A DNA stretch of 64,000 bases, taken from the NCBI GenBank assembly GCA_000092065.1, contig CP000597.1. One strand, written 5' to 3'. A program made the translations under genes and the position numbers. Position 1 is the first letter of the stretch. Each line of letters opens with the position of its first letter. This document shows, in pieces, positions 9,873 to 55,997 of this stretch. Origin of the DNA: Ostreococcus lucimarinus. Lineage: Eukaryota. The notes below the pieces were generated by a model. That model saw only the letters and a program-made list of their open reading frames with translations. It did not search any database and was not told where the DNA came from.

Positions 9873-12800
9873 TTAGTTGCCGCGGCGCTGAGCGCCGCGG
9901 AAACCGCCGCCGCGATCGCCGCGATCGTAATCGGCGTCGCGACGGCGGAACTGACGCTGGCGAAACGCGTCTCGCTCGTCGAGGATGCGGAATAAACCGC
10001 CCACGGCGTCGACGATGTTTTCGCTGGCGTCCGGAAGTGGTTTGCGAGGAGCCATGACTTTGAAAGCCAGCGCGGCATCGATCTCGCGACGGACGTCGGT
10101 GAGTAGATCCATGGTATCGGCGCACTGCGAATCGATGACGATCCAGTCGTCGAGCATGGCTCGGTGAGAGGTGGTTCGCTTGTCGCCGTCATCAGACGCG
10201 CCATCGGCGTCGCTCGACGACGCGAGTTCGCCGGATTCGTTCAATAGTCCCGCTTCGGGCGCCTTCGATGCCGTGGCGGCGTCATCACCATCCAGAAAGT
10301 CTCGCTTGGAGAGCTCGTGACCGCCGAGGAGCATGAGCTGCTCGGGGCGCATCGCCGTGACGTCTCGCAAGAACACTTGCGAGCTGAGCATCATCTCTCG
10401 ATACAAGAACCATCGAGGAAGAGGCGTGCGGTCGCGCGGTGGTTTGCGATGGAAAGCTACGCTCGAGGGGTGTAATCCGGCGTGGTCCTCGGTGCGCGTT
10501 CGCAGGGTGCCAAAGTTGCCAAACTGCCGCCGAGCCGCGATGTTCCCGGGGAGTCCTGCCGCCCAAACCGCGGTGAAGAGCGATTCGTTGGCGGCGTTAT
10601 AGTTCACCGATGCATCGTATCGCAGCGTCTTCTTACTCATCGATCGCCCGTCCAAATCGTAATCTTGAACCAATCCGATACGGTTTAGCTCGTGCAAGAG
10701 CTGCGAGCGAACCGAAGTGATGGTGTTCAAAGCGGCGATGGATATGAAATTATCGCTCGCCCAACGCCGAGCGCCGTCCCAGCCTTGATCGTACTGGATA
10801 GTCTGGAACGCATCGTACGCGCGAACAGTGGCGAGTAAATCTGAAGTCGCGCAGAACGATTGTCTGATTTGCCGCGCCTCGTCTCGCATCCCCGGAGGGA
10901 CGTAAAACGGATCCCGAGAGCTGAAACACGCCGCAGCGGTGAGCACTGGATCGAGACATTTCATCACTGCTCCCATGATGAGCATCCGTCCAGTCCCAGG
11001 ATCGAGCGGGAGGATGGACAGCAATCGTCCCATGGGCGTGAGGACTTCGCCTCCAGACGCCTCGTTCGTCTTGATGGCGCCGAGTTTAAAAAGCCTATCC
11101 ATCGCATACTCCACAGTCTCGTCCGACGGAGGGTCCATGGCTTTGGACAAGAAGTGTTGTACTCCGGTGTTGGTCATCGAGCACGTCTGCAAACAAGTCG
11201 CTTCGAGCGCCGTGCGCTGGATCTCTGGCGTCGGTCGTTCCGCCATGGCGTGCAGAGTACCGTGAGAATATATTCGGTAGCACGATCCAGGGGCGACACG
11301 TCCAGCGCGACCGGTTCGTTGTGTCGCGCTTGCGCGCGACGTTCCGACCGTGCCCATCGTCGACATTCCGCTCTCGGCGTTCCAAGACATCTCTCGTACC
11401 AGACCGCTGTCCACCACGGCGAGCACGTCGTTGATGGTGACAGAAGATTCGGCAATGTTCGTCGCTAATATGACCTTCACCACGCCATCTGGCGCCGGTA
11501 TGAACACTTTTTGTTGCTCTTCTTGAGGAATCGTCGAATGAAGTGGTATAACGTTCAACTTCTCGTAAAGCTCGGGGTCGGTGGTCTCCTCCAGTATCGC
11601 CATCGCCGACTTTATCTCATCCCAACCGGGTAGGAAGCACAAGATACTACCCTTACGTCCGGCGTCGGTTTCGATAGCCGCGACGTGTTTAGCGACTTCG
11701 GCGAGGAGTTGAATCGTGAGTTCGCTCACTTCCTTCGTTTCGTTCGCGCCGAATCGCTTACCAGCTCCACTCTTGCCCATGGACGACTCGCCCGTGCGCG
11801 CGTCGCGCATAGCCACCGCTCGACGAAGAGCACGCACGCGAGACGACGCTCGCATGCGACGAGGTGACATTCCTCGATTATTTTCGACGTCTTCCAACTT
11901 CATCGCCATGTCTTCGAGCGCAGGGTCGACGTCGTCGACGTCGTCGTCGTCATCGTCGACATCGTCTTCGTCCTCAGACACTTCCACTTCCACCTGCTCG
12001 TCCTCCGCCGCCGATATGCGCTCAAGTTGCTGCGCAGCGATTTCTTCGGCTTCGGCTTCCTCGAGTTCGCGCTGCAACGCGCGATCCTGCGCCGCGAGCA
12101 AATCTTTCGCAAGCTTTTTCAATCGACTTGGGATTTCTCGCTTACGAGCGTTGAATTCCTCCTCGCTTACAAGACTTTCATCTTCGACTTCGAGCTCGCC
12201 TCCACCGTCTAGCATATCCTCGAGGTGGACGATCTCTACAGGCCATCGCGGTTTCGTCGGTACGCTCATCAAAGGTACCTTTTCCTGCGTATCTTCACCC
12301 GCAAAGTAGTCACTGAACGATTCCGCGTCGAGCGTCGCGCTCATCAAAACGACTCGCAAATCCGGTCGAGTGGTGATGAGTTCGCGGAGCAAGACGAGCA
12401 GAAAGTCGGTGTTAATGTCGCGCTCGTGAACTTCGTCGATCATAACGTGCGAGATACCTTCCAAATTTTGATCTCTCATGAGTCTGCGAAGTAAAACCCC
12501 GGTCGTGACGAATTCAATGTTCGCCGCGTCGCGCGGTGAATTACCGTGTAATCGCACGGCGAAACCCACCGAGTTCCCAATCGGTTCGTCGCGCTCCGCC
12601 GCGACGCGCTCAGCGACAGATATCGCGGCGATACGTCGTGGTTGGGTGACGATAATGCGCGTGTTCGGCCCTTCGCCTTGTTGGATGGCGTCTTCTAAGA
12701 TGTACTGCGGACACTGGGTCGATTTCCCGCTCCCCGTGCCTCCGCTCACGACGACCACTTGATGTGTTTGCAACGCTTTCACGAGATCTTCGCGAATGGC

Positions 12801-39220: not shown

Positions 39221-39929
39221 CTATAACGACAGGTCGCCGGCGAGAATGTCGGCCAGTTTTTCCAAACGCTCCTCCTCCTTTAACGCCAACGCGTCGTCGT
39301 ACAACGCGGCTATGCGCGCCTGCACCACGCCCTCGCCCATCGCGCTCGGCGACTCGGCCGCGTCGTCGCCGAGCAGCCCGTTTGCCACCGCCAGCGCCTC
39401 GACGTCCTCGCGCGTCCTCGTCGTCGTCGTCGCCCGCATCTCTCTCCCCAAATCACTCTCTTCCCCTAAACTCTTCAGTTCCAACACGTCCCACATCGTC
39501 GCTTCCAACGCCGCTATCGTCCTTCGAACGCCGTGCGCGTCCTCGTCCTTCGCCGCGTCCCTCGTCAGCGCCTCGTCCGCCGCCGCGTCGTCCAACCGCA
39601 CCTCCACCACCTCAAACATCCGATCCAGCGCCCACGCCCGCACGTCTTCGGGCACGCCCGTCTCGCGCGCCTCGCTCACGTCGTACGCCACGATCCGCGC
39701 GTCGACGCCCTCGAACGCTTCCGTCGCGTCCTCGTCGTCTCGCGCGTCCCGCTCGAGCGCGTCCCGCCCGCGCGCGAACTCCTCCGCGCTCCCGCACGCC
39801 AGCACCACCGCGCGCGCGCGTCCACGACGCGCGCGCGACGCACTCTCGCGTTTCTCGCCCGCCGTCGCGTCGTCGACGACGCGCGCGCGCACGTCGGCGA
39901 CGTAATACTTCGTGTCCAGCGTCCAGCGT

Positions 39930-39963
<34 letters not shown>

Positions 39964-40042
39964 GCGCGCCGAGCGTCGCGCGCACGGCGTCGACGTACGC
40001 CATCGCGCGCGCGCCGTACACGTCGCACGCGTTGGCGCGCAT
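39221..40042 (-). CDS. alpha- and gamma-adaptin-binding protein p34 (AAGAB) homologue
   Basis: WTLDTKYYVADVRARVV (cf. WTIDNKYYSADINLCVV), acidic region, DRMFEVVEV (cf. HGFELVEL) and C-terminal KEEERLEKLADIL. Start taken at the internal Met (MRANACDVY) because the first Met of the ORF (40096) would overlap the divergent SelO start. Confidence 0.55.
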
Positions 40043-40094
40043 GCTCGCGCGCGACGCGTCGGCGCGCGTCGCTGTGCCGCACTGCGGGACGCGC

Positions 40095-42113
40095 ATGTTC
40101 GAGCGCGGCGCGCTCGCGCGGCTCGGACGACGCGCGGTCGAGCGCGCGCGCGCGCCGGCGCTCCGTCCAGAGCGCGGCGCGGCCGGCGCGGCGCACGCGC
40201 GGCGACGACGCGCGCGCGCGACGACGACGACGACGACGATGACGTCGAAACCTTTGGACCTGCACGACTCGTTCGAGGACGCGGCGCGACGCGCGGGCGC
40301 GCAGACGTGGATCGAAAGCCTGGACGAGGACCCGGAATCGAGCGCGCGCGCGCCGAACCGAACGTCGCGAGAGGTGAGATCGGGGCACTACGTGGAGGTC
40401 GAGCCCGAGGCGCTGGCGAACCCTCGCGCGCGGTTGGCGTCGACGACGTGCGCGGAGGCGATCGGGTTTAAAATCGCGCGAGAGTGCGAAAACTTGGAGG
40501 ATGGGTTCGTGAAATATTTCAGCGGTGACGTCGGGGGGGCGCGGGAGACGACGATGCGGACGTGGGCGACGCCGTACGCGCTGAGCATCATGGGACAGCG
40601 GATGACGAGCAACTGTCCGTTCGGAAACGGGAACGGGTACGGCGATGGACGCGCGATTTCGGTGGGAGAGATGGTGAATCCGGTGACTGGACAGAGGTAT
40701 GAGCTCCAGTTGAAGGGGGGGGGGCGGACGCCGTTTTGTCGCGGCGCGGATGGACGCGCGGTGTTGAGGAGTTCGATTCGAGAATTTTTGGCGAGCGAGG
40801 CGATGCACGCGTTGGGGGTGGATACGACGCGGGCGTTGTGTTTGATCGAAAGCGTTCGCGGGACGACGGCGCGAAGGCCCTGGTACAGCCCGACGAGCGA
40901 CGAGGAACACGCCAAGCGCGTGCCCACGGTGGATGACCCGAGACTGAAGGATTACCCGCCCGAGCAACGCGTGGAAATCGTGGAAATGTTAAAGCAACAG
41001 AAACGCGATCCGGACATCATGATACAAGAGCCGTGCGCGATCACGACGCGCGTTGCGCCGAGTTTCATGCGCATCGGGCACATTGATCTGTTTTCGCGAC
41101 GCGCGACGGCGCCTCGAGCGACGGCGCTTCAGAAGGAACAGCTCAAGAAAATCATTCGCCACGCGGCGTTTCGAGAGTTCCCAGAGACTATCGAAGAGCA
41201 CGGAGAAGACATGGCGAAAGTCACTCGATCGATGCTCGAAAAATCTGGCAAGAAAATAGCGAAAATGGTCGCGGGATGGATCCGCGTCGGGTTTTGTCAA
41301 GGAAATTTTAACGCCGACAACTGTCTCGTCGGCGGACGAACGATGGATTACGGCCCCTTTGGTTTCATGGACAAGTACGACCCCTCGTTCGCCAAGTGGA
41401 CGGGGAGCGGTGATCACTTTGCGTTCATGGCGCAACCCAAAGCTGGGCTCACGAATTTCGCCGTGCTGGCGGTTTCGTGCGCGCCTTTACTCGCGGGCGG
41501 CTCGGACGAGGCGACGGAGCTCGTGCGCGAGATGGAGGCGACGTTTGAGAACGAACTCAACGACGTCTTCCGCGCCAAGCTCGGGTTTGCGCCGAACGAA
41601 GACTCAGTGCGCGTCGCGCGCGACTTGTTCCGCTCAGAAAATGGTCTCGAAGGTTTGATGTACGAGAGCCAGGCGGATTGGACGGTGACTTGGAGACGGC
41701 TCGCGGAGTGCGCCGAAGTCGCCGACGAGAGCGACGACGAGGCGCTTCTCGCCCCGTTGCTGGAGACGTGCTTTTACGGTAATTCGATGAATGATGAGCG
41801 CAAAGCGAGCTGGTGCGCCTTCATACGTCGATGGAGAGACGCACTGAAGGCGTCTGGGACGTCGCTCGCCGACGCAGCGAAGCGCATGCGCTCGGAGAAT
41901 CCAAAGTACGTCTTGCGCGAGCACTTGCTCGTCGATGCGTACACCAAAGCCTCCGACGGCGACTTTTCGCTCGCTGAAGAGTTGTTTGAGCTCACGCAGC
42001 ACCCGTACGGGGGTGAAGGCGACGATGCGAAGTACGACGCAAAGTATTTTGTCAAGGCGCCCGAGGAGGCGCTGACGTCTGGCGGCGTCGCGTTCATGTC
42101 TTGATCCTCGTAA
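40095..42113 (+). CDS. SELENOO: SelO (protein adenylyltransferase/AMPylator, YdiU family). Probable selenoprotein: ORF TGA at 42102-42104 read as Sec, then Ser-Ser-TAA
   Basis: NPVTGQRYELQLKGGGRTPFCRGADGRAVLRSSIREFLASEAMHALGVDTTRAL closely matches the SelO/YdiU catalytic core. Eukaryotic SelO selenoproteins carry Sec at the antepenultimate position; here ...FMS-TGA-TCC-TCG-TAA. Candidate SECIS at 42212-42265. N-terminus (from 40095) resembles a mitochondrial presequence. Confidence 0.8.
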
Positions 42114-42211
42114 GCGAGTCCACTGTTCTTTGAACGGGCTCGCGCGGTCGCAAACGATTGAATTGATTAGTACGCTCGGTGTCGTTCACATCTCCACCCA
42201 CTACGGTGGAA

Positions 42212-42265
42212 GACGTGACGCGACGACTCGAAACGCGTTTTTAACGCGCGAGCCGTCGCCGATTT
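42212..42265 (+). other. candidate SECIS element (form 2) in the SelO 3' UTR
   Basis: GUGAC (UGA 42216-42218) / 11-nt strand GCGACGACUCG / AAAC / mini-stem GCG-UUUUUAA-CGC / CGAGCCGUCGC (pairs with the 5' strand, one A-C mismatch) / C-GA-U. The core quartet UGA..GA, the conserved AAA 12 nt after the quartet, and a TGTAA about 25 nt downstream all fit. Confidence 0.5.
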
Positions 42266-42308
42266 TTTGGAACGACCCAAATTCGTTTTGTAACGCTAAA
42301 TTACATTG

Positions 42309-43628
42309 CTAAAGCGATCCCAACTCCGTGGCTTGAATTCGAGTGTACTGCACCACGGGACGACCCGATCCGAACATGATGCCGTCTCGCCACCATAAGT
42401 ACGCGGTGACGGCGATAATGGACGAGAGAAGAACGATGAAGCACGCCAACCAAAGCGAGCCTCCGACCGCCGTCCCGTGTCGTCTCAACGCCTCCTTGCG
42501 ATGTTCGACTTGATCGGGATCTACAGGTGGAGGCGGCGGTGGTGGCGACGGATCCGCCGTCGGACTCGCTTGCCCGAGCGGTGTCCGCAGCGCGCTCGCG
42601 CAAAACGCCAAAGTCGCCGAGACGTCGATGTCTCTTCGAGTCTTTTCCTCGTTCACGGCCGCCACGCACACCGTCTTGATGCGATCGTTCGCGCTCAAAT
42701 CGCACCCTTCACGACTTTTCACGTCGTCGTATTCGTATTTTGACATCAACGCCGCGCCGAGCGCTCGAGCGCACGCCTCGGTCTCGCGCTCGCCCTCCCC
42801 CGCGCCGACTAAATCGCTCGACTCGCACGCCCTCGTCGCGTCTTCCACCCCTCGCGCTAAACCAGCGTCGACGTGCGCCTCGACGACGCCGAATCGGCAC
42901 GAACGCACGCCATCCACACCATTCGCCCTACCGCACGCCTCCCACGCGTCTCGCGTCGCCCTCTCGACCGCCTTCGTCGCCCTTCGCGTCGCCCGACCGA
43001 CGGCGCGCGCGCACGTCCCGTACTTCCCCCCCCCAACCTCATCGCACGTCCTCAGCGCTCGCTCCACCACCGCCTCGACGTCCCCATTCGTCATCTCTCC
43101 CACGATGCGCTCCACCACGCGCTCGAGCACGCCCTCGACGCACCCTCCCTCGCACGTCGCGTCCGCGTCGTCGCCGCACGCGCTCGCCCCCCCGTCCCCC
43201 CTCGCCTCGTCGTACGCCCGCTCCCGCCCGATCGCCCGCCCGACGCCCGCGCACGTCCCCAACAGCGCCTTTCGCGCCCCCGTCTCGCCCTCGTTCGGCG
43301 TCTCCATCGCGCGCGTCGTCGTCGCTCTCGCCGCGCACGTCGCCGCCGCCGCGTCCCGCGCGCCGTCGCGACATCGCGTCAGCAGCGCCTCCGTCGCGCA
43401 CGCCTCGCGGTCGGCGCTCGACGCGCACGTCGCCGCGATCTCGTCCGCGACCTCGCTCCACGTCGTCGGCGCCCGCGCGTCGTCGAGACGAGACGCGCGA
43501 AGATTCGGATTCGTCGCGCGCGGCGCGATCGCGCGCGCGCTCGCTCGCGTCGCCGTCGCGCCCCGCGCGAGCGCGGCGACGCAGACGACGCAGACGGCGA
43601 TCGCGCGTCGACGCGCGCCGTCGCGCAT
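42309..43628 (-). CDS. type I membrane protein, hypothetical: signal peptide, Cys-rich ectodomain, poly-Pro linker (PPPPPPPVDP), one TM helix, short tail
   Basis: 1.3 kb codon-biased ORF with these features read directly. Confidence 0.5.
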   Translation of the reverse strand: MRDGARRRAIAVCVVCVAALARGATATRASARAIAPRATNPNLRASRLDDARAPTTWSEVADEIAATCASSADREACATEALLTRCRDGARDAAAATCAARATTTRAMETPNEGETGARKALLGTCAGVGRAIGRERAYDEARGDGGASACGDDADATCEGGCVEGVLERVVERIVGEMTNGDVEAVVERALRTCDEVGGGKYGTCARAVGRATRRATKAVERATRDAWEACGRANGVDGVRSCRFGVVEAHVDAGLARGVEDATRACESSDLVGAGEGERETEACARALGAALMSKYEYDDVKSREGCDLSANDRIKTVCVAAVNEEKTRRDIDVSATLAFCASALRTPLGQASPTADPSPPPPPPPVDPDQVEHRKEALRRHGTAVGGSLWLACFIVLLSSIIAVTAYLWWRDGIMFGSGRPVVQYTRIQATELGSL

Positions 43629-54695: not shown

Positions 54696-55997
54696 TCAGC
54701 GAAGCTCGCCGAGCGCCGCACGCGAGAAGACTGCCCGTGTGCTCTCGTCGCCCGCGCATACCTCTGACGAACTCGAGTCGTCGGAATTTTTGCTGAAGTC
54801 TAATGGTAATGTCAGTTCTAAGTGTCTCTTCGCGCCTGAGTATTTGAATTTGAAATCAAACGTGCGTCGAGAACGTTCACGAAGCTCGCGCTTGCCCACG
54901 ACGGCGGCGCTCGGCGGCGTCCCGGTGGTTACGACCCAACTCCGCGCTCGCTCGACGTCTCGGAGCTGCATCGTCGCCAACTCGTCCTGGCTTAAAGGCT
55001 GAGCTGTGATGGGTTTATGATTCAACCAAACGTTCACGAGGAACGTCACGCGCTTAGACGACTGCGGCGTACCGCGCGCGAACTCACTCGGGGCGCCGTG
55101 CAAGAACCGTCCGTCAAATGTGATTTGCTTCCCCCACTTTGGCCACGAAACGACGCACTCGGTGATATCACCGCACACCCCGACGTCGCCGTTTTCGTAA
55201 TCACAATTCACCTTCGTCGGACGGTTCACGACCACCGTCGGCGTCCCTCCGTCGCAAAAGTACGTCACCGTGCCGAGTTGCGGATGCGCGTTGACGCCCG
55301 CGCCCTCGAGGGCGTAGTCTTTGTCCCAGTGCCACCCGATCTCATCACCCTCATCGATGACTTGCGTCCACCACTCGGCGCCCGATTTCGAGGGATCATA
55401 CCTCGCTCTCTCGTCTTCGTCGCGCGCGCCGGCGTCTCGTTCCGCGCGCGCCGCGGCTTCGCGCGTCGCCCTTCGAAACGTCTCTCGCGCTAAATACTCG
55501 AGCGCGCACCTCGGTTCGCTCTCGGCGTTCACCCAAAACGTCCTCCCACTCGACGTCCCGCTCGTCCTTCTCTTCCCTCTCGCATTTTTCGCCGTGTGCG
55601 CCGCCTCGCAATCCTTCGTCAACCGCCTCGCGTCGTCGTCGTCGAGCGCGTCTCGCCCCGCGAACGTCGTCGCGCTCGTCGTCTCGTACGTCAGGTATCG
55701 GTTCACTTCGCACGCGATTCGTCCGAGTTCATCCACCGCGAGTTCGAGCTCGGACGTCGCGCTCGCGTCGTCGTCGCTCTCGTCGCTCTCGTCGCTCTCG
55801 CTCTCGCTCTCGCTCTCGCTCGTCGTCGCCTCGCGCGCGTCGTTCGCGCGCCTCGTCCGTCGCGTCGTCATCCGCGCCTCGTCGTCGCGTCGTCGACGTC
55901 GCGCGTTCGCCGCCCCGCGTCGCGCGCGCCGGTCGCCCGACGCGCGACGGGCGTCGCGCGTTCGCCGCGTCGACGGCCGCCGGGCTCGAGCGCGCAA
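54696..55997 (-). CDS. hypothetical protein with a 2OG-Fe(II) oxygenase/cupin-like motif pattern (GWHWDKDY ... RFLHG ... R..F.VNVW) and an N-terminal (SE)n/(SDE)n acidic repeat
   Basis: 1.3 kb codon-biased ORF. HxD...H...R spacing read directly; family not assigned. Confidence 0.5.
   Translation of the reverse strand: MRARARRPSTRRTRDARRASGDRRARRGAANARRRRRDDEARMTTRRTRRANDAREATTSESESESESDESDESDDDASATSELELAVDELGRIACEVNRYLTYETTSATTFAGRDALDDDDARRLTKDCEAAHTAKNARGKRRTSGTSSGRTFWVNAESEPRCALEYLARETFRRATREAAARAERDAGARDEDERARYDPSKSGAEWWTQVIDEGDEIGWHWDKDYALEGAGVNAHPQLGTVTYFCDGGTPTVVVNRPTKVNCDYENGDVGVCGDITECVVSWPKWGKQITFDGRFLHGAPSEFARGTPQSSKRVTFLVNVWLNHKPITAQPLSQDELATMQLRDVERARSWVVTTGTPPSAAVVGKRELRERSRRTFDFKFKYSGAKRHLELTLPLDFSKNSDDSSSSEVCAGDESTRAVFSRAALGELR

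What the first reader, a model, noticed from the sequence alone, without database searches (positions are those of the whole stretch)
42102..42265. SelO gene ends at an in-frame TGA followed by Ser-Ser-TAA and a SECIS-like hairpin: probable selenocysteine recoding
The SelO/YdiU-family ORF (40095..42104) is listed as terminating at TGA 42102-42104. The next nine bases are TCC TCG TAA, so the protein would end ...FMS-U-SS if TGA is read as Sec. Eukaryotic SelO is a known selenoprotein family whose single Sec sits three residues from the C-terminus, which is exactly this layout. About 100 nt downstream (42212-42265) there is a stem-loop with the SECIS hallmarks: a GUGA..GA quartet, an 11-bp helix, an unpaired AAA 12 nt after the quartet, a mini-stem and apical loop. 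A TGTAA follows about 25 nt later. Marine picoalgae are known to have large selenoproteomes. If the locus is correct, a pipeline treating TGA as stop would truncate the protein and miss the redox-active residue.
Basis: partly seen in the sequence, partly recalled or inferred. Interest (0 to 1): 0.8.

Follow-up and report, generated by a model that had tools for sequence, protein, structure and literature searches.

The report
Known selenocysteine codon in algal SelO

Summary

- **Source.** The window is Ostreococcus lucimarinus CCE9901. Its SelO protein is identical, wherever the two align, to XP_001422161.1.
- **Layout.** The ORF ends ...AFMS-TGA-TCC-TCG-TAA.
- **Coding past the TGA.** All 94 related Sec-type loci I fetched (65 distinct, down to 42% identity) keep TGA-Ser-Ser-stop. 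The Ser codons vary synonymously, including TCN to AGY switches. The two homologues that have Cys at this position end ...CSS.
- **SECIS.** The hairpin at 42215-42263 has a G-UGA/GA quartet, an 11-position helix, unpaired AAA, a 6-bp mini-stem and a UUU loop. It is one of only two conserved islands in the 3' UTR of eight Ostreococcus lineages. 91.8% of pair cells are paired and 7 of 17 pairs show compensatory changes. A model built from it finds same-layout elements behind more distant (about 50% identical) SelO genes.
- **Rfam.** The Rfam models miss it, but they also miss every other SelO locus tested, so this is a sensitivity gap.
- **Prior work.** Lobanov 2007 lists SelO as a selenoprotein in O. 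lucimarinus. Dudkiewicz 2012 names the O. lucimarinus SelO GenBank entry as Sec-misannotated.
- **Extra.** A second conserved hairpin starts directly after the true stop (42114-43). It is widespread in Sec-type SelO mRNAs and resembles the SRE/PSL elements.

The parts
40095..42113 (+). SelO (protein adenylyltransferase / selenoprotein O) coding sequence including the Sec codon and the true stop. The real start may be the ATG at 40239.
   Evidence: Pfam PF02696 E 7.5e-66. 100% identical over all aligned residues to O. lucimarinus XP_001422161.1. Start ambiguity from the N-terminal alignment.
42102..42104 (+). In-frame TGA, read as selenocysteine, antepenultimate residue (Uxx>).
   Evidence: TGA is present at this position in all 94 Sec-type loci. 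Cys (TGC/TGT) is present in P0100 and P0116. Literature.
42105..42113 (+). Ser-Ser codons and the true stop TAA.
   Evidence: In 65 distinct loci Ser1 is TCC 35, TCT 29, TCG 1. Ser2 is TCG 42, AGT 16, AGC 3, TCA 2, TCC 1, TCT 1. The stop is TAA 49, TAG 16. This is synonymous variation under protein-level constraint.
42114..42143 (+). Proximal stem-loop (PSL, SRE-like) starting at the first base after the stop, 9 nt after UGA: GCGAGUCC / ACU bulge / GUUC-UUU-GAAC / GGGCUCGC.
   Evidence: dG -16.2 kcal/mol, z -3.5 on the + strand, against -11.7 on the - strand. In 10 Ostreococcus-type sequences 97.7% of cells are paired, against 16-48% in slid controls, and 4 pairs show changes on both sides. 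An anchored stem is present in 82% of 57 distinct SelO tails, against 27% and 38% in controls.
42215..42263 (+). Type II SECIS core: unpaired G, UGAC/CGAU non-Watson-Crick quartet, helix II (10 bp plus an A.C mismatch), unpaired AAA, 6-bp mini-stem, UUU apical loop.
   Evidence: The model R1 hit at 42203-42286 (85.5 bits) is the only strong hit in the window.
42289..42293 (+). Unsupported.
   Evidence: Present only in the window, its nearest strain L019 and L008. Absent in five other Ostreococcus-type lineages.

Best explanation
This is the nuclear SelO (selenoprotein O) gene of Ostreococcus lucimarinus.

TGA 42102-42104 is decoded as selenocysteine, giving a protein that ends ...AFMS-U-S-S. 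Translation then terminates at TAA 42111-42113.

Recoding is directed by a type II SECIS element 114 nt downstream in the 3' UTR (42215-42263). It is of the Ostreococcus kind, with an unpaired G before the UGA/GA quartet and a long mini-stem. By analogy with other eukaryotes it would recruit SBP2, eEFSec and Sec-tRNA[Ser]Sec to the ribosome paused at UGA.

A second conserved hairpin begins 9 nt after the UGA, immediately after the real stop. It most likely acts as a local recoding modulator of the SRE/proximal-stem-loop type, sitting at the ribosomal mRNA entry site when UGA is in the A site.

Shown here: the sequence layout, coding constraint beyond the TGA, Cys/Sec correspondence, and conservation and covariation of both hairpins.

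Inferred: actual selenium incorporation, binding of the factors, and any effect of the proximal hairpin on recoding.
For: - Identity: Pfam SelO match; identity to the O. lucimarinus protein.
- Coding past the TGA: TGA-Ser-Ser-stop in 94 of 94 Sec-type loci, with TCN to AGY switches at the second Ser.
- Cys forms: they end ...CSS and are encoded by TGC/TGT.
- 3' UTR conservation: the alignment of seven Ostreococcus lineages shows only two conserved islands, the proximal hairpin and the SECIS.
- SECIS structure: RNAalifold predicts independently the structure I had drawn by hand. 91.8% of cells are paired against 29-39% for slid controls. 7 of 17 pairs have compensatory changes. GUGAC, AA and CGAU are invariant.
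- More distant loci: the orthologue-derived model finds same-layout elements 130-240 nt behind SelO in loci about 50% identical.
- Literature: SelO is listed as a selenoprotein in O. tauri and O. lucimarinus. The described Ostreococcus SECIS hallmarks are G before the core and a long mini-stem. 75Se labelling of O. tauri shows selenoproteins (PMC2375036). The O. lucimarinus GenBank entry gi:145355852 is named as Sec-misannotated at Uxx> (PMC3281104).
- Proximal hairpin.
Against: - Rfam covariance models give no SECIS hit in the window, even at E<=10. The same models miss all 20 other SelO loci tested.
- Helix I of the SECIS is weak (A-U and G.U rich) and is not cleanly alignable.
- No transcript 3'-end, proteomic or 75Se data specific to this protein were available.
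- The convergent gene's stop codon lies only 46 nt beyond the SECIS, so the two 3' UTRs must abut or overlap.
- For the proximal hairpin, the published test of the mammalian SelS, SelK and SelO proximal stem-loops found no active stimulation of recoding in a surrogate reporter (PMC6844570).
Confidence: 0.95

Rival explanations
1. The TGA is a genuine stop. The protein ends ...AFMS, as in the NCBI model, and the downstream hairpins are ordinary 3' UTR or termination structures.
For: Public annotation ends at TGA. Rfam reports no SECIS. A loose SECIS-like pattern occurs by chance about twice per 128 kb scanned.
Against: 94 of 94 loci keep exactly two Ser codons and then a stop, with synonymous codon-family switches. 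Cys replaces the TGA in two homologues. The SECIS covaries. Stable hairpins right after stops are not general in this genome: 49 other ORF ends have a mean z of 0.03. Published work classifies the gene as a selenoprotein gene.
Confidence: 0.02
2. The TGA is read through by a near-cognate tRNA (Trp, Cys or Arg) under the influence of the stop-proximal hairpin. The distal hairpin is not a functional SECIS.
For: The proximal hairpin, with its 9-nt spacer, resembles known read-through and frameshift stimulators. The SEPN1 SRE is reported to promote read-through of other stop codons as well (PMC6844570).
Against: The distal element carries every invariant SECIS motif at canonical spacing, and these motifs are the invariant columns across lineages. 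Ostreococcus is documented to use Sec widely, with SECIS elements of the same style. Cys, the chemical analogue of Sec, is what replaces the TGA in homologues.
Confidence: 0.02
3. The conserved hairpins act on the minus strand, in the 3' UTR of the convergent gene 42309-43628, rather than in the SelO mRNA.
For: The intergenic gap is only about 195 nt, and the convergent gene is syntenic in all Ostreococcus-type loci. The model gives a weak reverse-strand hit because the stem is near-palindromic (20.5 bits).
Against: The UGA/GA quartet, the AAA and the 5'-side bulge are strand-specific. G.U and U.G pairs in both hairpins would become A.C on the minus strand. The proximal hairpin is 4.5 kcal/mol weaker on the minus strand. 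Both elements recur behind SelO in distant lineages, where the neighbour can differ: L014 has no convergent gene within 900 nt.
Confidence: 0.01

Closest known systems
Ostreococcus tauri / O. lucimarinus SelO selenoprotein gene and its type II SECIS (Lobanov et al. 2007, Genome Biol 8:R198; Dudkiewicz et al. 2012, PLoS One 7:e32138)
   Same: This is that gene. The protein is identical to XP_001422161.1 apart from model differences. It has the Uxx> layout and a SECIS with G before the quartet and a long mini-stem, as described for nearly all Ostreococcus SECIS elements.
   Different: Nothing substantive differs. The stop-proximal hairpin and the spurious 27-codon intron in the NCBI model appear in none of the passages I retrieved from these papers.
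Human SELENOO (Sec667 of 669, mitochondrial, CxxU motif; Han et al. 2014, PMC3994087)
   Same: Same family (PF02696). There is a single Sec, with two residues after it and a 3' UTR SECIS.
   Different: The alga has F at the position of the resolving Cys (FMSU, not CxxU), as noted for the 'marine picoeukaryote' branch. Its SECIS has GUGA rather than the usual AUGA. Mitochondrial targeting is untested, and the start codon is uncertain.
SEPN1 SRE and the SelS, SelK and SelO proximal stem-loops (SL1/PSL) of mammals (Bubenik 2013, PMC3628699; Cockman 2019, PMC6844570)
   Same: A stable, phylogenetically conserved stem-loop lies a few nucleotides 3' of the Sec UGA. For selenoproteins with a C-terminal Sec it sits at the very start of the 3' UTR. 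A SelO PSL was predicted and tested in a heterologous reporter in mammals.
   Different: Here it is shown in green algae and many other protist SelO mRNAs, with a fixed 9-10 nt spacer and a recurrent GCG...CGC closing stem. Its function is untested. The published data conflict: SL1 enhances recoding when placed next to the UGA, whereas the PSL is dispensable or inhibitory in the V5 surrogate assay.
Rfam SECIS families
   Same: The architecture matches the SECIS definition: quartet, helix II, AAR, and an apical region with a mini-stem.
   Different: No Rfam model scores it at E<=10, and none scores any of 20 related SelO loci at gathering threshold. These protist elements lie outside what the models detect.

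Membership tests
SelO/YdiU protein family (PF02696) | Significant match to the SelO profile over the kinase-like domain | tested here: met
   E 7.5e-66, 223 bits against a cut-off of 22.8. PDB SelO/YdiU chains match at E ~1e-42.
Sec-containing SelO (Uxx> type) | In-frame TGA at the column where non-Sec homologues have Cys, two residues before the C-terminus | tested here: met
   The window reads ...AFMS-TGA-SS-stop. P0100 ends ...FMSCSS and P0116 ends ...YFSCSS, encoded by TGC/TGT. Uxx>/Cxx> is described in PMC3281104.
Sec-containing SelO (Uxx> type) | Coding constraint continues past the TGA | tested here: met
   94 of 94 loci keep Ser-Ser-stop. The second Ser uses both TCN (46) and AGY (19) codons in 65 distinct sequences.
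Sec-containing SelO (Uxx> type) | Selenium actually incorporated at this residue | not testable with these tools
   Only indirect support: 75Se labelling of O. tauri proteins in general (PMC2375036).
Eukaryotic SECIS element, type II | Non-Watson-Crick quartet: 5' UGAN opposite 3' NGAN (tandem G.A/A.G) | tested here: met
   UGAC 42216-42219 and CGAU 42260-42263. Both are invariant in 8 lineages.
Eukaryotic SECIS element, type II | Helix II of about 9-12 bp leading to unpaired AA(R) at fixed distance from the quartet | tested here: met
   There are 11 positions (10 bp plus A.C), and AAA begins 12 nt after UGA. The AA is invariant. Helix II is 90.9% paired, with 3 compensatory pairs.
Eukaryotic SECIS element, type II | Additional mini-stem and apical loop above the AAR | tested here: met
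   6-bp mini-stem and UUU loop. 93.5% paired, with 4 of 6 pairs compensatory. This matches the 'long mini-stem' of Ostreococcus SECIS elements.
Eukaryotic SECIS element, type II | Helix I below the internal loop | tested here: inconclusive
   Only a purine-rich 5' flank and a U-rich 3' flank that can form weak A-U and G.U pairs. MFE folds differ between lineages.
Eukaryotic SECIS element, type II | Located in the 3' UTR of the same mRNA, downstream of the UGA at sufficient distance | tested here: met
   On the same strand, 114 nt from the UGA in the window and 99-136 nt in relatives. The transcript extent itself was not tested.
Eukaryotic SECIS element, type II | Recognised by curated SECIS covariance models | tested here: not met
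   No Rfam hit at gathering threshold or at E<=10. The same negative for 20 other Sec-type SelO loci shows low model sensitivity, not absence of the element.
Eukaryotic SECIS element, type II | Binds SBP2 and supports Sec insertion | not testable with these tools
   Requires experiment.
SRE / proximal stem-loop of selenoprotein mRNAs | Stable stem-loop starting within about 6-10 nt 3' of the Sec UGA | tested here: met
   The stem starts 9 nt after the UGA. dG -16.2, z -3.5.
SRE / proximal stem-loop of selenoprotein mRNAs | Phylogenetic conservation of the structure | tested here: met
   97.7% paired with compensatory changes within Ostreococcus. An anchored stem is present in 82% of 57 distinct SelO tails, against 27% and 38% in controls.
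SRE / proximal stem-loop of selenoprotein mRNAs | Alters UGA recoding efficiency | not testable with these tools
   Only a weak correlate: the two Cys-form loci lack such a stem (n = 2).

The most novel reading that the evidence does not exclude
The stop-proximal hairpin (42114-42143) may be the local representative of an ancient element shared by Sec-type SelO mRNAs. It is a stem with a GCG...CGC base that starts 9-10 nt after the UGA. It is retained across very divergent protist lineages and possibly up to the mammalian SelO PSL. It may be tied functionally to decoding a UGA that sits only two codons before a real stop, for example by pausing the ribosome, or by separating Sec insertion from termination.
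Probability: 0.4. Interest if true: 0.45.

Novelty: already known. Interest (0 to 1): 0.2.

Why it matters
For the scan, this is a positive control. A reader without tools correctly recognised a recoded stop codon and its SECIS from raw sequence.

Biologically it adds nothing to the published Ostreococcus selenoproteome.

In practice it shows three things:
- The RefSeq model of this gene is still wrong in at least two ways. It is truncated at the Sec codon, and a conserved 27-residue segment has been removed as an intron.
- Metagenome-derived SelO proteins are systematically truncated by three residues.
- The Rfam SECIS models do not detect these algal elements.

The only part that could lead further is the conserved stop-proximal hairpin. 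It offers a broad comparative data set for the unresolved question of what such hairpins do in selenoprotein mRNAs with a C-terminal Sec.

Tried and rejected
- **Rfam.** I scanned the whole window at gathering threshold, 42000-42500 at E<=10, and 20 related loci. There was no SECIS hit anywhere. The weak hits (AS-traI, RefA5, psbT-asRNA, Guanidine-II) lie far below their thresholds and are chance.
- **Home-made SECIS pattern scan.** The pattern alone is only about twice as frequent as in shuffles. The other four hits were not followed up; two of them (12479-12539 +, 55168-55210 -) fall within the span of long ORFs.
- **Model R1 on the window.** No second SECIS of this type was found. The next hits are GC-rich CGN repeats at E>=0.07.
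- **TGTAA as a poly(A) signal.** It is not conserved.
- **Supplement search of Lobanov 2007** for the SelO C-terminal peptide found nothing in the text held.
- **Papers not held.** Howard 2005, Howard 2007 and Palenik 2007 could not be read. Whether Howard 2005 lists SelO among the SRE candidates could therefore not be checked.
- **Cys-form control for the proximal hairpin.** It is limited to two distinct loci, because all 80 metagenome loci returned were Sec forms.

Full report
**What is there**

The region reads ...GTC GCG TTC ATG TCT TGA TCC TCG TAA. The ORF is a SelO/YdiU protein (Pfam PF02696, E 7.5e-66; bacterial SelO structures match at E ~1e-42). TGA is at 42102-42104, two Ser codons follow, and TAA is at 42111-42113.

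Its parts are:
- G42215, then UGAC 42216-42219.
- Helix II, GCGACGACUCG with CGAGCCGUCGC (10 pairs plus one A.C).
- Unpaired AAA 42231-42233.
- Mini-stem CGCGUU/AACGCG and loop UUU.
- CGAU 42260-42263.

**Source organism**

The exact protein occurs on many marine metagenome contigs. Its 90% cluster contains XP_001422161.1 / A4SA14 of Ostreococcus lucimarinus CCE9901. The window protein is identical to that entry at every aligned residue.

The NCBI model differs in three ways:
- It starts at the Met equivalent to 40239.
- It removes 27 residues as an intron.
- It stops at the TGA.

The 27 residues are conserved in all homologues aligned, so that intron is almost certainly spurious. Which ATG is the true start remains open. 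The O. tauri orthologue also starts at the downstream Met.

**Is the TGA translated?**

About 115 of the 120 best homologues are annotated as ending ...FM[ST]. Two end ...FMSCSS and ...YFSCSS.

I fetched DNA for Ostreococcus-type relatives at 71-79% identity, for a 52% relative, and for 80 further metagenome loci down to 42% identity over the last 73 residues. All 94 Sec-type loci read TGA-Ser-Ser-stop.

In the 65 distinct sequences:
- The first Ser is TCC 35, TCT 29, TCG 1.
- The second Ser is TCG 42, AGT 16, AGC 3, TCA 2, TCC 1, TCT 1.

The switch between the TCN and AGY codon families keeps the amino acid while changing two or three bases. That is a protein-level constraint beyond the supposed stop. 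The Cys forms use TGC or TGT at this codon.

**Is the hairpin a SECIS?**

An alignment of seven Ostreococcus-type 3' ends shows only two conserved islands in otherwise unalignable UTRs: a hairpin directly after TAA, and the proposed SECIS.

For eight distinct SECIS sequences:
- RNAalifold predicts exactly the structure I had drawn by hand.
- 91.8% of pair cells are standard pairs, against 29-39% when the 3' partners are slid.
- 7 of 17 pairs carry changes on both sides.
- 0 of 500 shuffles reach the observed covariation score.
- The invariant columns are the functional SECIS motifs: CGUGACGCGACG, the AA, and GUCG.CGAUUU.

The distance from the Sec UGA to the quartet UGA is 99-136 nt, and 114 nt in the window.

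A covariance model built from this alignment gave these results:
- It scores the window element at 85.5 bits and finds no second element in the window.
- In loci about 50% identical it finds same-layout elements 130-240 nt behind the SelO stop (E 0.008-0.07). Their layout is [G/A]UGAC, an 11-position helix, AAA, a mini-stem, then CGAU.

Rfam finds nothing, either in the window or in 20 other Sec-type SelO loci. I read this as lack of sensitivity for these elements, not as evidence against a SECIS.

A loose SECIS pattern alone is only about twice as frequent in the window as in shuffles. The weight therefore rests on position, strand, conservation and covariation. Helix I is weak and could not be aligned convincingly.

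**Literature**

- Lobanov et al. 2007 (PMC2375036) detected 29 selenoprotein genes in O. lucimarinus. Their Table 2 lists SelO for both Ostreococcus species and their Figure 4 shows the O. tauri SelO type II SECIS. They describe the Ostreococcus SECIS hallmarks as an unpaired G before the core and a long mini-stem, which is what is seen here.
- Dudkiewicz et al. 2012 (PMC3281104) state that the marine-picoeukaryote SelO branch usually has Uxx>. They name gi:145355852 [O. lucimarinus] and gi:116056105 [O. tauri] as entries whose Sec was misannotated as a stop.
- Han et al. 2014 (PMC3994087) show Sec667 and a CxxU motif in human SelO. The alga has FMSU and so lacks the resolving Cys.

The finding is therefore correct and already known.

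The first conserved island is a hairpin at 42114-43: GCGAGUCC, ACU bulge, GUUC-UUU-GAAC, GGGCUCGC. It starts at the first base after TAA, 9 nt after the UGA.

Stability and strand:
- dG is -16.2 kcal/mol (z -3.5) on the + strand and -11.7 on the - strand.

Conservation within Ostreococcus (10 sequences):
- 97.7% of cells pair, against 16-48% in slid controls.
- Changes include GCGAGU/ACUCGC to GCGGAU/AUCCGC.
- Several U.G wobbles fit only the + strand.

Breadth across 57 distinct SelO tails:
- A stem domain starting 0-2 nt after the stop with dG <= -10 is present in 82%.
- The same measure gives 27% at other offsets in the same UTRs and 38% in dinucleotide shuffles (Mann-Whitney p about 1e-10 to 1e-11).
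- The sequences are not phylogenetically independent, so these p-values overstate the significance.

The closing stem:
- Many lineages share a GCG...CGC closing stem. Positions 4-8 vary as pairs, and the interior ranges from 26 to about 68 nt.
- That tabulation is fitted to predicted structures and is descriptive only.

Controls:
- In the window itself, 49 other ORF ends show no such tendency (mean z 0.03).
- The two Cys-form loci lack it (n = 2).

Comparable elements are known. These are the SEPN1 SRE, SelS SL1/PSL, and predicted proximal stem-loops of mammalian SelK and SelO, which were tested as replacements for the SelS PSL (PMC3628699 and PMC6844570). Their function is disputed.

I rate the hairpin as real and probably linked to Sec decoding (about 0.4). 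It is at most a new member, or a broader distribution, of a known kind.

**Mechanism**

Shown:
- The Uxx> coding layout under selection.
- A conserved, covarying type II SECIS on the same strand, 114 nt downstream.
- A conserved stop-proximal hairpin.

Inferred from established eukaryotic Sec biology:
- SBP2 binds the quartet.
- eEFSec delivers Sec-tRNA to the UGA.
- The proximal hairpin sits at the mRNA entry channel when UGA is in the A site, and may slow the ribosome or eRF1 action.

**Verdict**

The novelty class is 'already known' and the interest is low.

Noticed in passing
window 42114-42143 (+); also L007-L094 directly after the SelO stop: A conserved hairpin starts at the first base after the true stop, 9 nt after the Sec UGA. 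It covaries within Ostreococcus. It is present in 82% of 57 distinct Sec-type SelO 3' ends from very divergent lineages, often with a GCG...CGC closing stem. It is absent from the two Cys-form loci. It resembles the SRE/PSL elements of mammalian selenoprotein mRNAs.
   Followed up: yes
window 40920-41000 (+), within SelO: The NCBI model XP_001422161.1 removes 27 residues (VPTVDDPRLKDYPPEQRVEIVEMLKQQ) as an 81-nt in-frame GT..AG intron. The segment is conserved in all 14 homologues aligned, so the intron is very probably an annotation error.
   Followed up: partly
window 40095 versus 40239 (+): The SelO start codon is ambiguous. The upstream ATG adds an Arg/Ala-rich 48-residue extension, possibly an organelle presequence, and forms a CATG overlap with the longest reading of the divergent minus-strand ORF. 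The NCBI model and the O. tauri orthologue start at the downstream ATG.
   Followed up: partly
window 42264-42311: The convergent gene 42309-43628 (-) encodes 439 aa with no Pfam match, and it is syntenic in all Ostreococcus-type loci. Its stop codon lies only 46 nt beyond the SECIS 3' end, so the two 3' UTRs must abut or overlap.
   Followed up: no
P0008 (metagenome protein, 69% identity to the window SelO): This gene model does not end ...AFMS. Its tail contains SCLDPRKRV, a near-match to SCLDPRKRVH, which I got when I translated the window's TGA region in a different frame. It is a frame-shifted or mis-called C-terminus in a public metagenome annotation.
   Followed up: no
all 120 best homologues and 94 loci: Nearly every publicly predicted SelO protein from marine protists is truncated by three residues (U-S-S), because TGA was taken as a stop. 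Rfam SECIS models detect none of the 20 loci tested.
   Followed up: yes
window 39935-39962: A (GTC)n / (GAC)n repeat encodes a poly-Asp run in the divergent minus-strand ORF 39221-40096. CGN-type triplet repeats elsewhere in the window produce the weak false hits of the SECIS model (for example 1887-1976).
   Followed up: no
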